64,000 nt of DNA from an uncultured Erysipelotrichaceae bacterium (lineage in GTDB: Bacteria > Bacillota_I > Bacilli_A > RF39 > UBA660). Both the position numbers and the translations under genes were made by a program. The stretch is from positions 12,323-76,322 of the forward strand of contig CADCIN010000002.1 of the NCBI GenBank assembly GCA_902801525.1, written 5' to 3'. The notes beneath the pieces were generated by a model. The model worked only from the letters and a program-made list of their open reading frames with translations. It made no database searches and had not been told where the DNA came from. Of this stretch, positions 4,842 through 6,321 are shown piece after piece. Each line of letters opens with the position of its first letter. Positions within the stretch are counted from its first letter, which is position 1.

Positions 4842-6321
4842 TGATATATATTATAAACCAATTACTTATGAAAATGTAATTTCTACGTGGGATATTGTAA
4901 GAAGAACTTGTAAAAACAAAAGAGCAATATTTAGATACCATGTAAACAAGAATTCCATGAATTACAATATATATCAAATATTATTAAATGGCTTATATAA
5001 ACCTTTGCCTTTTCGATTATTTTTAATCTTTGAACCAAAGGCAAGATTAGTAATGAGCCAGACAGTGGGTGACAAAATTGTTAATCATTTTGTTGCTAAA
5101 TATTATCTTTTACCATATCTAGAAAATAAGCTTATTGATAGTAATGTAGCAACAAGAAAAGGTAAAGGAAGTAAATATGCAGATAAATTAATAAATGACT
5201 ATATTAATAAAATTAGAATTAATAATCCTAAGTCAGAAATATATGTGTTGAAGATAGATATAAGTAAATACTTCTATACTATTCCACACGATATTTTGAT
5301 GGAAAAACTTGCAAAAAGAATTCAAGATATAAATGTATTAAAAATTATTAAAACAATTATTGATGAAACAGATAAACCTTATATTAATAACATAATAGAT
5401 AATTTAAATAAAAAATATGGGACCAATATTCCTCATTATGAAAAAGGAGTTGGATTAAGTATTGGTGCCATGACTTCTCAATTTCTAGCGATATTCTTTT
5501 TAAATGATTTAGACCATTACATTAAAGAGGATTTAGGATGTAAGTATTACGTAAGGTATATGGATGATTTTATTATTATTGATACAGATCGAGATAGATT
5601 AAAAACAATTTGGAAATTGATTGAAATTGAGTTAAAAAAATTAAAATTGAAAATTAATCCTAAGAGTTCAATTGTTAATTTAAAAACGGGAATTACATTC
5701 TTAGGATATAAGTATAAGATAGATAATGATAAATATGATGTAACTTATAGAAAAAAGACAATTAAAAAAATAAAAAAGAAATTAGTTACATTAAAGAAGC
5801 ATGATTTAATGAAATATTACAGGTCTTATGGTAGTTATTATGGTTACTTGAAAAAGATAAAGACTTGGGAAAGGGAGTTTACAATGAAAGCAATAGAAAA
5901 GTACGATTACTTTAAAGAAAAGAATCCCAAAAAAATTATTCTTGTAAAAGAAGGCAGTTTTTATAAAACATATAAAGACGATGCTAAGTTGCTTTGGAAT
6001 TTATTTGGCTATAAATGGAATAATTCATCGATTGCTTTTGGTGTAAGTAATGCAGGAAAAATCTTTGACAAAATAAAAAGTCAAGGATTGGGATACATTA
6101 CAATTGAAAACGATTCAAGTACTATTGAAATACAAGGTAATGATATTGTATATGACTCTTATCTAAATATTTCATTAATTAATTATGAAAAGTATGAGAA
6201 GAAAAATAGACTACATAAAATGTTAGATGAACTAATTGAACAAGATATGAATTTTGTTAATACTCTGGAAGAGTACTTTAATACACTACAGAGAGGAGAT
6301 GGTAAGAGTGAAGAAAATTAA
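4825..6321 (+). CDS. DGR reverse transcriptase with C-terminal MutS-domain-I-like extension
   Basis: SIGAMTSQ fits the [LIV]GxxxSQ DGR-RT hallmark. [12 protein letters not shown] contains YMDD at 5557-5568. It is adjacent to the TR/VR pair. At 498 aa it has a ~146-aa tail from 5884. Confidence 0.9.
   Translation: [498 protein letters not shown]

What the first reader, a model, noticed from the sequence alone, without database searches (positions are those of the whole stretch)
5884..6321. DGR reverse transcriptase carries a C-terminal extension resembling the MutS mismatch-recognition domain (domain I)
The RT ORF is 498 aa. The last ~146 aa are extra relative to a minimal RT core.
- The extension reads [41 protein letters not shown]...[26 protein letters not shown].
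- From memory, the E. coli MutS N-terminus reads [42 protein letters not shown]...[27 protein letters not shown].
- Shared features: P-x-x-[IL]-[IL], G-[DS]-F-Y, DDAK, G-[IV]-[PS], and QG-x-x-[VY]-x-I-x-E.
- The mismatch-stacking Phe of GxFYE is present (GSFYK), but the Glu is Lys.

The RT's job is to produce A-templated mismatches in a cDNA:target heteroduplex. A mismatch-binding module fused to it suggests heteroduplex recognition, or protection from host mismatch repair, during retrohoming. I am not aware of this fusion having been characterised.
Basis: inference. Interest (0 to 1): 0.75.

Follow-up and report, generated by a model that had tools for sequence, protein, structure and literature searches.

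The report
DGR reverse transcriptase fused to Msl
The reverse transcriptase of a mutation-generating retroelement in a rumen bacterium really does end in a small copy of the mismatch-sensing domain of the DNA repair protein MutS; this module (Msl) and this fusion were noted in a 2018 survey, but what the module does has never been tested.

Summary
ORF 4825-6321 is a 498-aa reverse transcriptase (RT) of a diversity-generating retroelement (DGR). All 24 VR/TR differences lie at TR adenines.

Residues 354-498 lie beyond the RT thumb.
- Residues 354-437 are a trimmed MutS domain I. Pfam MutS_I scores 25.7 bits against a cutoff of 20.6, and 33 of 36 diverse relatives hit MutS_I and nothing else. 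hhalign matches E. coli MutS residues 14-95 (E 3.7e-6). The AlphaFold model (pLDDT 89) has only MutS/MSH chains among its top 50 PDB matches.
- Residues 440-489 form an acidic helical hairpin that MutS lacks.

The whole module is homologous to free-standing ~135-aa proteins. One of these sits in an msl-avd-RT DGR cassette whose RT is tail-less. The tail is therefore the known accessory protein Msl, fused to the RT.

At least 116 clusters of related RTs carry the fusion. The mismatch-stacking Phe is kept in about 90-95% of family members. The partner Glu is Lys in 108 of 124 fused forms and is never Glu there.

Wu et al. 2018 already reported three DGR RTs with this motif, plus the MSL family. 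Function is untested. My best guess is binding of the mismatched cDNA:VR duplex to blunt host MutS (about 0.3).

Verdict: new member of a known kind, of moderate interest.

The parts
70..3927 (+). DGR target gene. It encodes a large surface protein with a VWA domain (aa 202-316) and a C-terminal variable region. The true start codon is uncertain.
   Evidence: ORF listed. VWA/VWA_2 Pfam hits. The VR lies at its 3' end.
3732..3851 (+). Variable region (VR), 120 nt.
   Evidence: Direct repeat with the TR at 80% identity. All 24 of 24 differences fall at TR adenines.
4164..4283 (+). Template repeat (TR), 120 nt. It has 39 adenines, 24 of them substituted in the VR. It ends in a GC-rich block (GGCGTGCGTCCGGCA) shared with the VR.
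4428..4841 (+). Avd-like accessory ORF: 137 aa as listed, pI 9.2. The start codon is uncertain.
   Evidence: It lies between the TR and the RT. It is basic. It shows weak pairwise similarity to the bAvd of L011 (E 6e-5). The ORF at the same position in L015 carries a faint bAvd hit. It has no Pfam hit of its own.
4825..5883 (+). RT core: fingers, palm and thumb, aa 1-353. It includes the DGR-type IGAMTSQ motif (aa 213-219, nt 5461-5481) and YMDD (aa 245-248, nt 5557-5568).
   Evidence: RVT_1 with E 1e-19. Best PDB neighbour is the Bordetella phage DGR RT 8ub7, target-normalised TM-score (TMt) 0.81. 41% identity to the tail-less RT of L011 over residues 25-342. Invariant columns.
5884..6135 (+). 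MutS domain I-like core of the Msl module (aa 354-437, pI 9.1). Its topology is helix, beta-hairpin, helix, strand, helix, two strands.
   Evidence: Pfam MutS_I at 25.7 bits against a cutoff of 20.6. hhalign to E. coli MutS residues 14-95. Foldseek top 50 all MutS/MSH3, about 78-100 aligned columns; for the shorter (~78-column) alignments rmsd is ~2 A. Secondary structure.
5953..5967 (+). GSFYK motif (G377-K381), at the tip of the beta-hairpin. Phe379 corresponds to MutS Phe36. Lys381 corresponds to MutS Glu38.
   Evidence: Sequence and alignment. Phe is F in 110/124 fused and 119/124 short relatives. The Glu-equivalent position is K in 108/124 fused relatives and E in 0/124 fused and 8/124 short relatives.
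6142..6291 (+). Acidic helical hairpin (aa 440-489, two helices). It is part of the Msl module but has no counterpart in MutS domain I.
   Evidence: Helices H440-473 and H476-489. pI 4.5. It is present in free-standing Msl relatives, whose matches span profile positions 1-135. It is absent from a clade of 436-447 aa RTs.
6319..6321 (+). Stop codon of the RT::Msl ORF. The next gene of the surface-fibre operon overlaps it.

Best explanation
Identity (shown, about 0.9). The window carries a complete chromosomal DGR in the order target-VR, TR, avd-like ORF, RT. It comes from a rumen Erysipelotrichaceae/Bacilli bacterium. The last 145 residues of the RT are the DGR accessory protein Msl (MutS-like), fused in frame after the thumb through a roughly 12-residue linker.

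The module has two parts.
- A basic, trimmed MutS domain I of about 84 aa. It keeps the beta-hairpin with the DNA-wedging Phe but has Lys where MutS has the discriminating Glu.
- An acidic two-helix hairpin.
It has none of MutS domains II-V, so it has no clamp, no ATPase and no surface that signals to MutL.

Mechanism (inferred, about 0.3). Because it is tethered to the RT, the module travels with the adenine-mutagenised cDNA. I propose the following steps.
1. The cDNA pairs with the VR and forms a heteroduplex dense in mismatches.
2. The Phe wedge and the basic face bind that distorted duplex.
3. The module cannot license repair, so it hinders or delays host MutS, which would otherwise revert the whole tract to the parental sequence.
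The fusion guarantees a 1:1 supply at the site of action. Related DGRs achieve the same supply with a separate msl gene.
For: DGR identity.
- 24/24 VR/TR differences lie at TR adenines.
- The IGAMTSQ motif is present.
- The best structural neighbour is the Bordetella phage DGR RT.

MutS_I homology.

The tail is Msl.
- An exhaustive profile search finds 535 representative clusters. Most are ~130-140 aa proteins that match across profile positions 1-135.
- One of them, P0071, lies in a bona fide DGR in L011. There the VR is at 2231-2340 and the TR at 2500-2609. The genes follow in the order msl, bAvd, then a tail-less 380-aa RT.
- P0071 is 37% identical to the window tail over 82 aa, E 1e-18.
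- The L011 RT is 41% identical to the window RT core.

The fusion is conserved and under constraint.
- 116 of the 120 closest RT clusters carry the tail, down to 48% identity.
- Phe is kept in about 90-95% of family members.

The mechanism is plausible.
- In Bacteroides, deleting mutS raises DGR mutagenesis 5-10 fold in an all-or-nothing manner (10.1101/2024.11.15.621889).
- Engineered DGR systems in E. coli either add a dominant-negative MutL (10.64898/2026.07.21.739853) or delete mutS (PMC12875486).
- At least one host of a fused RT encodes a canonical five-domain MutS (L018).
- E. coli MutS E38 mutants have been crystallised bound to a G.T mismatch (PDB 1wbd, 1wbb and 1wb9, listed). Loss of the Glu therefore need not abolish DNA binding.
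Against: - No experiment on Msl exists in the searched literature.
- From general knowledge of MutS structures, domain I binds DNA together with the domain IV clamp and as a dimer. An isolated domain may bind weakly.
- One tethered wedge cannot cover the many mismatches of one tract (24 VR/TR differences here). All-or-nothing repair suggests that a single MutS loading event is enough to revert the tract.
- The Glu needed for mismatch discrimination is absent. Binding may therefore not be specific for mismatches.
- Only a few percent of DGRs carry Msl: 16 MSL genes plus 3 RT motifs among 372. Msl-less DGRs also work in mutS+ hosts.
- I could not inspect model coordinates or PAE, so the position of the module relative to the RT's duplex exit is unknown. 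pTM is only 0.69 for the full-length model.
Confidence: 0.55

Rival explanations
1. The module acts during cDNA synthesis, not afterwards. It would sit at the duplex exit of the RT and grip the RNA:cDNA hybrid. That hybrid carries A:N mispairs after every misincorporation. Gripping it would help the enzyme extend mismatched termini or stay on the template. Mismatch repair would not be involved.
For: - The module is covalently joined to the thumb, which contacts the template-primer duplex in the RT family.
- In cassettes with a free gene, msl sits immediately upstream of avd and RT, as expected for a component of the ribonucleoprotein.
- The core is basic, pI 9.1.
- The discriminating Glu is replaced by Lys, which fits generic duplex binding better than mismatch proofreading.
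Against: - The Bordetella phage RT-Avd complex performs adenine mutagenesis without any Msl. The solved 8ub7 RT is 328 aa and covers only the core.
- MutS domain I is known to read B-form DNA, not A-form hybrids (general knowledge).
- The Phe wedge is strongly conserved, which argues for recognition of a kinked or mismatched site rather than plain backbone binding.
Confidence: 0.25
2. The module is mainly a protein-protein adaptor. The helical hairpin and the degenerate MutS_I core would dock the RT to Avd, to the replisome (for example the sliding clamp), or to host repair or recombination factors. That would deliver the cDNA to the replication fork at the VR. The DNA-wedging function would be vestigial.
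For: - Recent work ties DGR retrohoming in E. coli to replication direction and to ssDNA exonuclease status (PMC12875486).
- The acidic hairpin (pI 4.5) is unlikely to bind nucleic acid, yet it is conserved in most fused and free forms.
Against: - The most conserved positions are those of the MutS DNA-binding hairpin (G, F, Y, D, A), not the hairpin helices.
- A clade of RTs keeps only the MutS_I core and has lost the helical hairpin.
- No partner was identified here.
Confidence: 0.12
3. The module recruits or misdirects host mismatch repair. It would mark the heteroduplex so that repair copies the cDNA strand into the VR rather than removing it.
For: [quoted passage not shown]
- All-or-nothing conversion of whole tracts resembles long-patch repair.
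Against: - The module lacks MutS domains II-V, which in MutS carry the ATPase and the MutL interface (general knowledge).
- In Bacteroides, loss of MutS increases rather than decreases DGR output, although that element lacks Msl.
Confidence: 0.06
4. The resemblance is chance or compositional, and the tail is an ordinary lineage-specific RT extension.
For: - The single-sequence search of PDB found no MutS.
- The narrow family profile also missed MutS.
- The NCBIfam MutS hit is insignificant, E 0.03.
- The Pfam match covers only profile positions 4-46.
Against: - Four independent lines agree.
- 33 of 36 diverse members hit MutS_I and no other family.
- The predicted viral structure library returns small stand-alone 'MutS domain I' proteins of uncultured phages as the best matches, with rmsd 1.0 A over 74 residues.
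Confidence: 0.02

Closest known systems
DGR RTs with a C-terminal MutS_I motif (three related RTs in Wu et al. 2018, NAR 46:11, PMC5758913)
   Same: A DGR RT with an extension of up to ~150 aa after the thumb that shows weak similarity to Pfam MutS_I. This is exactly the architecture found here.
   Different: - Those three sequences could not be retrieved because no supplementary files are held. Direct identity to them is therefore untested.
- The paper reports only 'weak sequence identity'.
- Here the match is backed by fold prediction, by homology over the full module to free-standing Msl, and by a clade of at least 116 clusters.
Msl / MSL accessory proteins of DGRs (Legionella and Bacteroides DGRs; Wu et al. 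2018; Macadangdang et al. 2024 preprint)
   Same: - A small MutS-like module encoded in DGR cassettes that also carry avd.
- The window tail aligns over its whole length with ~135-aa free-standing proteins. One of them (P0071, L011) sits in an msl-avd-RT DGR.
   Different: - Here the module is not a separate gene. It is fused to the RT C-terminus, and the gene order is avd then RT::msl instead of msl, avd, RT.
- In fused forms the MutS Glu38-equivalent is almost always Lys. It is more variable in free forms.
- I did not compare directly with the named Legionella or Bacteroides Msl sequences.
Domain I (mismatch-binding domain) of bacterial MutS, e.g. E. coli MutS residues ~14-95 (PDB 1e3m, 7ou4); Pfam PF01624
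   Same: - The fold and topology match.
- G-x-F-Y at the hairpin tip, followed by the DDA(K) helix with identical spacing.
- The G-[FI]-[PG] turn and the QG...I.E strand.
   Different: - The module is about 84 aa against ~115, because the loop equivalent to MutS residues 55-66 is shorter.
- Lys replaces Glu38.
- MutS domains II-V are absent.
- An unrelated helical hairpin is added.
- The module is attached to a polymerase.
Bordetella phage BPP-1 DGR reverse transcriptase bRT (PDB 8ub7 and related entries)
   Same: It is the best structural neighbour of the RT core, with target-normalised TM-score (TMt) 0.81. It is also a DGR RT that works with Avd.
   Different: bRT is 328 aa and has no C-terminal module, and its cassette has no Msl. 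Sequence identity in the structural alignment is about 20%.
Stand-alone 'MutS domain I' proteins of uncultured gut phages (BFVD A0A8S5PL02, A0A8S5PPT8, A0A8S5L9N2)
   Same: Small proteins (74-153 aa) with the same fold. The best has rmsd 1.0 A over 74 residues.
   Different: - Their genomic context was not examined, so it is unknown whether they belong to DGRs.
- tblastn with the tail found no match in the phage or plasmid collections.

Membership tests
Diversity-generating retroelement (DGR) | A TR/VR repeat pair whose differences fall at adenines of the TR | tested here: met
   120-nt repeat, VR at 3732-3851 and TR at 4164-4283. All 24 of 24 differences are at TR adenines, and 24 of the 39 TR adenines are changed.
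Diversity-generating retroelement (DGR) | An RT of the DGR clade, with the [I/L]GxxxSQ motif in RT domain 4 and closest similarity to DGR or group II intron RTs | tested here: met
   IGAMTSQ at aa 213-219, with invariant G214, S218 and Q219. RVT_1 with E 1e-19. The best PDB neighbour is the Bordetella phage DGR RT 8ub7. That this motif is diagnostic comes from my own knowledge of the DGR literature.
Diversity-generating retroelement (DGR) | The VR lies at the 3' end of a target gene | tested here: met
   The VR ends 76 nt before the stop codon of ORF 70-3927.
Diversity-generating retroelement (DGR) | An Avd accessory protein (small, basic four-helix bundle) | tested here: inconclusive
   ORF 4428-4841 has the right position, size and pI of 9.2. 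It has only weak similarity to a bAvd, E 6e-5 pairwise. It has no Pfam bAvd hit. Its structure was not predicted.
MutS domain I (Pfam PF01624) | Score above Pfam's gathering cutoff | tested here: met
   25.7 bits for the tail alone and 23.4 bits within the full RT, against a cutoff of 20.6. The match covers only profile positions 4-46 of 113. 33 of 36 relatives match, best E 5.4e-10, with up to positions 4-85 covered.
MutS domain I (Pfam PF01624) | The domain I fold | tested here: met
   AF2 model with pLDDT 89.4. The Foldseek top 50 PDB hits are all MutS/MSH3 chains, with 75-104 aligned columns, rmsd down to 1.4-2.3 A and E from 9.5e-5. This rests on a predicted structure, not a solved one.
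MutS domain I (Pfam PF01624) | The Phe-x-Glu mismatch-recognition motif (E. coli F36/E38) | tested here: not met
   Phe379 is present and conserved. The Glu position is Lys381. It is K in 108/124 fused relatives, and E in 0/124 fused and 8/124 short relatives. Only half of the motif is kept.
MutS protein (mismatch repair ATPase) | Domains II-V: connector, core/lever, clamp and ABC ATPase | tested here: not met
   There are no Pfam hits to MutS_II to MutS_V. The residues after the core form a 50-aa helical hairpin. This is not a MutS. For contrast, the canonical 852-aa MutS in L018 has all the domains.
DGR accessory protein Msl (MSL, Wu et al. 2018) | A MutS-like module encoded inside a DGR cassette that also has avd | tested here: met
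   The tail lies within the cassette next to the avd-like ORF. It is homologous to P0071, which is encoded in the msl-bAvd-RT DGR of L011.
DGR accessory protein Msl (MSL, Wu et al. 2018) | A separate small ORF of 112-283 aa | tested here: not met
   Here it is fused in frame to the RT with no intervening stop. The short 'MKAIEKY...' proteins in the databases are products of nonsense mutations, frameshifts or contig ends in fused genes.
DGR accessory protein Msl (MSL, Wu et al. 2018) | Sequence homology to the named Legionella or Bacteroides Msl proteins | not tested

The most novel reading that the evidence does not exclude
The RT-tethered Msl could be a natural, cis-acting device for evading mismatch repair. 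It would be a MutS domain I stripped of its signalling domains that occupies the mismatch-rich cDNA:VR heteroduplex and keeps host MutS off it. The fusion would then be a 'Rosetta stone' showing that Msl works in physical complex with the RT. If so, it would explain how some DGRs get hypermutated tracts past mismatch repair. It would also offer a compact (~85-145 aa) fusion partner to replace dominant-negative MutL, or a mutS deletion, in DGR and retron-based editing.
Probability: 0.25. Interest if true: 0.7.

Novelty: new member of a known kind. Interest (0 to 1): 0.4.

Why it matters
How the adenine-mutagenised cDNA of a DGR replaces the VR is the main open step of the mechanism, and so is how the resulting tract of mismatches survives host mismatch repair. 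Recent work shows that MutS restricts DGR output 5-10 fold in Bacteroides. Engineered DGR systems have to disable mismatch repair.

Msl is the only DGR-encoded factor with an obvious link to mismatches, yet it has never been tested. A large, conserved clade in which Msl is covalently fused to the RT has three uses.
- It argues that Msl acts within the RT complex.
- It offers a simple genetic handle: truncate the tail, or mutate F379 or K381, and test epistasis with mutS.
- It suggests a ready-made fusion design for DGR or retron editors.

As a discovery it is incremental, because both the module and the fusion were noted in 2018.

Tried and rejected
Searches that found nothing or too little.
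- Single-sequence phmmer of the tail against PDB sequences found no MutS.
- A profile of 11 close relatives against PDB also missed MutS. MutS/MSH6 came to the top only with a 36-sequence profile that included distant free-standing members.
- The NCBIfam MutS hit is insignificant, E 0.03.
- blastn of the cassette against phages found nothing. tblastn of the tail against phages and plasmids found nothing. I take this as a chromosomal clade with no cultured-phage relatives.
- The search for related loci with the broad alignment A3 failed because no stretch was conserved enough. With alignment A2 it returned only four rumen MAG contigs.
- The supplementary tables of Wu et al. 2018 are not held. 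I could not identify their three RTs or their MSL sequences.

Ideas I dropped.
- At first the many ~145-aa database proteins starting 'MKAIEKY' suggested the module is usually a separate gene in close relatives. Reading the DNA showed otherwise.
  - L001 and L002 have an in-frame TGA where the window has a Gly codon.
  - L003 has a frameshift in a lysine-rich run.
  - L005 ends at a contig edge.
- I considered that the TGA at a Gly position in L001 might mean genetic code 25. I dropped this because the downstream ORF checked in L001 has no in-frame stop and the window reads cleanly in code 11.
- I looked for a conserved internal ribosome-binding site before Met354, which could yield free Msl from the fused gene. 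The window has AGGGAG 7 nt upstream, but four diverse relatives have only weak purine runs. The result is equivocal.
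Full report
**1. What is at the coordinates**

ORF 4825-6321 (+) encodes 498 aa. Position 5884 is the ATG of Met354, so the flagged interval is residues 354-498 plus the stop codon. The quoted peptide is exact.

**2. The element is a genuine DGR**

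- A 120-nt direct repeat links the 3' end of ORF 70-3927 (VR, 3732-3851) to an intergenic copy (TR, 4164-4283).
- All 24 of the 24 differences lie at TR adenines.
- A small basic ORF (4428-4841, pI 9.2) lies between the TR and the RT. It has weak similarity to a bAvd.
- The RT has RVT_1 (E 1e-19) and the IGAMTSQ and YMDD motifs.
- The full-length AlphaFold model (pLDDT 88.2) has the Bordetella phage DGR RT 8ub7 as its best PDB neighbour, with target-normalised TM-score 0.81.
- Near-identical contigs come from rumen MAGs labelled Erysipelotrichaceae or Bacilli.

**3. The tail is extra**

A related DGR RT in L011 is 380 aa. It aligns to window residues 25-342 at 41% identity and ends there. The Bordetella RT is 328 aa. 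In the model the thumb helices end at residue 343. A lower-confidence linker follows, and a separate folded unit begins at about residue 356.

**4. The tail is homologous to MutS domain I**

- Pfam MutS_I scores 25.7 bits for the tail alone and 23.4 bits in context, against a gathering cutoff of 20.6. The match covers only profile positions 4-46 of 113.
- Pairwise BLASTP against E. coli MutS gives E 1e-6.
- I built a 36-sequence alignment of diverse relatives (A3). Of its members, 33 hit MutS_I at E <= 1e-3 (best 5.4e-10), and none hits any other Pfam family.
- The A3 profile against all PDB sequences places MutS and MSH6 in the top 18 positions (E 0.003-0.08).
- hhalign of A3 against E. coli MutS aligns module positions 4-76 with MutS residues 14-95 (probability 87%, E 3.7e-6).
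- The AlphaFold model of the tail (pLDDT 89.4, pTM 0.77) returns only MutS/MSH3 chains among its top 50 PDB matches. These have 75-104 aligned columns, rmsd down to 1.4-2.3 A, and a best E of 9.5e-5.
- In the viral structure library the best matches are small stand-alone 'MutS domain I' proteins of uncultured phages, the best with rmsd 1.0 A over 74 residues.
- The early negatives reflect how remote the relationship is. They do not contradict it.

**5. Anatomy of the module**

- Residues 354-437 form the domain I-like core: helix, beta-hairpin, helix, strand, helix, two strands. The core is basic (pI 9.1).
- It is shorter than MutS domain I, mainly because the loop equivalent to MutS residues 55-66 is shorter.
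- Phe379 sits at the start of the second hairpin strand, the position of MutS Phe36. Lys381 occupies the position of Glu38.
- Residues 440-489 form two long helices. They are acidic (pI 4.5) and have no counterpart in MutS.

**6. The module is the DGR accessory protein Msl, fused to the RT**

- An exhaustive HMMER search of 1.84 billion representative proteins with the tail profile found 535 clusters at E <= 1e-3.
- Most of the best 150 are proteins of ~130-140 aa that match across profile positions 1-135. A minority are RTs of 470-515 aa matching at their C-terminus.
- One short member, P0071, lies in L011 in a complete DGR: the VR at 2231-2340 within its target gene, the TR at 2500-2609, msl at 2865-3275 (Pfam MutS_I), bAvd at 3265-3624, and a 380-aa RT.
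- P0071 is 37% identical to the window tail over 82 residues (E 1e-18).
- So two DGRs with RTs 41% identical carry the same module, one as a free gene upstream of avd and the other as a C-terminal fusion.

**7. The fusion is common and conserved**

- Of the 120 best-scoring RT relatives (90%-identity clusters, down to 48% identity), 116 carry the module.
- Four examined loci share the order target, avd, RT::msl.
- Across fused proteins the Phe is F in 110/124 and Y in 10/124. The Glu38-equivalent is K in 108/124 and never E.
- Across short proteins the Phe is F in 119/124. The Glu38-equivalent is K 40, R 17, Y, V or I 10 each, and E only 8.
- G, Y, D and A of the G-x-F-Y-x-T-[YF]-x-x-D-A motif are also near-invariant.
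- Database names for these proteins say only 'RNA-directed DNA polymerase'.

**8. Apparent stand-alone copies among close relatives are broken fusions**

- L001 and L002 have a TGA where the window has Gly336.
- L003 has a frameshift in a lysine-rich run.
- L005 is cut by the contig end.
- L004 has lost the RT core but keeps the N-terminus, the thumb and Msl.

**9. What is already known**

- Wu et al. 2018 (PMC5758913) state that about 20% of DGR RTs have extensions of up to ~150 aa. [quoted passage not shown]
- The same paper defines the accessory family MSL (MutS-like, 112-283 aa, 16 of 372 DGRs, always together with avd).
- Macadangdang et al. (10.1101/2024.11.15.621889) note Msl in three Bacteroides DGRs. 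They show that deleting host mutS raises VR mutagenesis 5-10 fold in an all-or-nothing fashion, in an element that lacks Msl.
- One E. coli DGR study deletes mutS (PMC12875486); another adds dominant-negative MutL, citing the MutS-like homologues as the rationale (10.64898/2026.07.21.739853).
- No paper in the library reports an experiment on Msl or on the fusion.

**10. Mechanism**

Shown: the identity, the fold class, the conservation pattern, and the fusion/fission relationship.

Inferred: the module binds distorted or mismatched duplex through its Phe wedge and basic face. It cannot signal repair, because it lacks the clamp, the ATPase and the MutL interface. Tethered to the RT, it accompanies the cDNA to the VR. 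The most economical role is to hinder MutS on the heteroduplex. I put this at about 0.3.

The main objections are these.
- An isolated domain I is expected to bind DNA weakly.
- The discriminating Glu is lost.
- One wedge must contend with many mismatches.
- Msl is rare among DGRs.

The rivals are a role at the reverse-transcription step (0.25), an adaptor role (0.12) and redirection of repair (0.06). Chance resemblance is excluded.

**11. Verdict**

The feature is a new member of a known but functionally uncharacterised kind.

This analysis adds four things.
- Full-length homology of the tail to free-standing Msl.
- The size of the fused clade.
- The Phe-kept, Glu-to-Lys pattern.
- Confident structure predictions.

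Interest is moderate (0.4). A DGR specialist would not be surprised, but the fusion makes the open question about mismatch repair directly testable.

Noticed in passing
window 93-179: About 22 tandem copies of the tetranucleotide AGAC (95% matches). They lie inside the 5' end of the longest reading of the DGR target ORF, or just upstream of its real start. A 4-nt repeat here could switch the adhesin on and off by slipped-strand frameshifting, on top of DGR diversification. Both near-identical MAG contigs (L007, L008) break close to this point.
   Followed up: partly
window 70-11393: The DGR heads an operon for a surface fibre or pilus. The genes are the VWA-domain target; a 713-aa protein with InlB B-repeat/Flg_new_2, SHIRT and DUF11 domains (6254-8395); three ~200-aa proteins with no Pfam hit (8397-8996, 9471-10133, 10169-10813); an S26 signal peptidase (8984-9502); and a sortase (10791-11393). 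The same linkage recurs in L004, and in L015 with SpaA pilins and two sortases. This looks like a Gram-positive parallel to the DGR-diversified pilus tip adhesins reported in Bacteroides.
   Followed up: partly
L001, L002, L003, L004: Several rumen relatives carry disabled copies of the same DGR RT. L001 and L002 have a TGA nonsense codon at the Gly336 position. L003 has a frameshift in a lysine-rich run. L004 has an in-frame deletion of the whole RT core that still keeps TR, VR, thumb and Msl. This suggests repeated inactivation of the mutator in natural populations.
   Followed up: partly
P0008, P0010, P0013 (relatives of window 5965-6096): Three distinct protein clusters from different assemblies share one in-frame deletion of about 44 aa. 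It joins GSFY directly to ITIE and removes most of the MutS_I core while keeping the helical hairpin. I did not determine whether this is a real lineage or a recurrent assembly artefact.
   Followed up: no
P0184, P0187-P0192, P0196, P0226; L018 6001-7317: A clade of related DGR RTs of 436-447 aa ends right after the MutS_I core (profile positions 1-87) and lacks the C-terminal helical hairpin. The hairpin therefore appears dispensable in some lineages.
   Followed up: partly
L018 9226-11784: In one host of a fused RT, a canonical five-domain mutS gene (852 aa) lies only about 2 kb downstream of the DGR. This shows that at least this host has mismatch repair. The proximity may be coincidental.
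   Followed up: no
window 5866-5886: Met354, the first residue of the Msl module, is nearly invariant even in fused proteins. In the window it is preceded by AGGGAG 7 nt upstream. This could be a relic of a former separate gene start, or an internal start that also yields free Msl. Four diverse relatives have only weak purine runs at this position, so the point is unresolved.
   Followed up: partly
P0036 (844 aa): A protein made of about 14 tandem copies of a ~60-aa unit (MPERGVKTTIFIES...) matched positions 58-109 of the Msl profile in 13 stretches (E 5e-23). Its nature, and whether the match is meaningful, is unknown.
   Followed up: no
P0018 (472 aa): This protein looks chimeric. Its N-terminal half resembles an AMP-dependent synthetase or ligase (by eye only; no domain search was run on it). 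That half is joined mid-RT to the palm, thumb and Msl part of a fused DGR RT. It is either a rearrangement or an assembly chimera.
   Followed up: no
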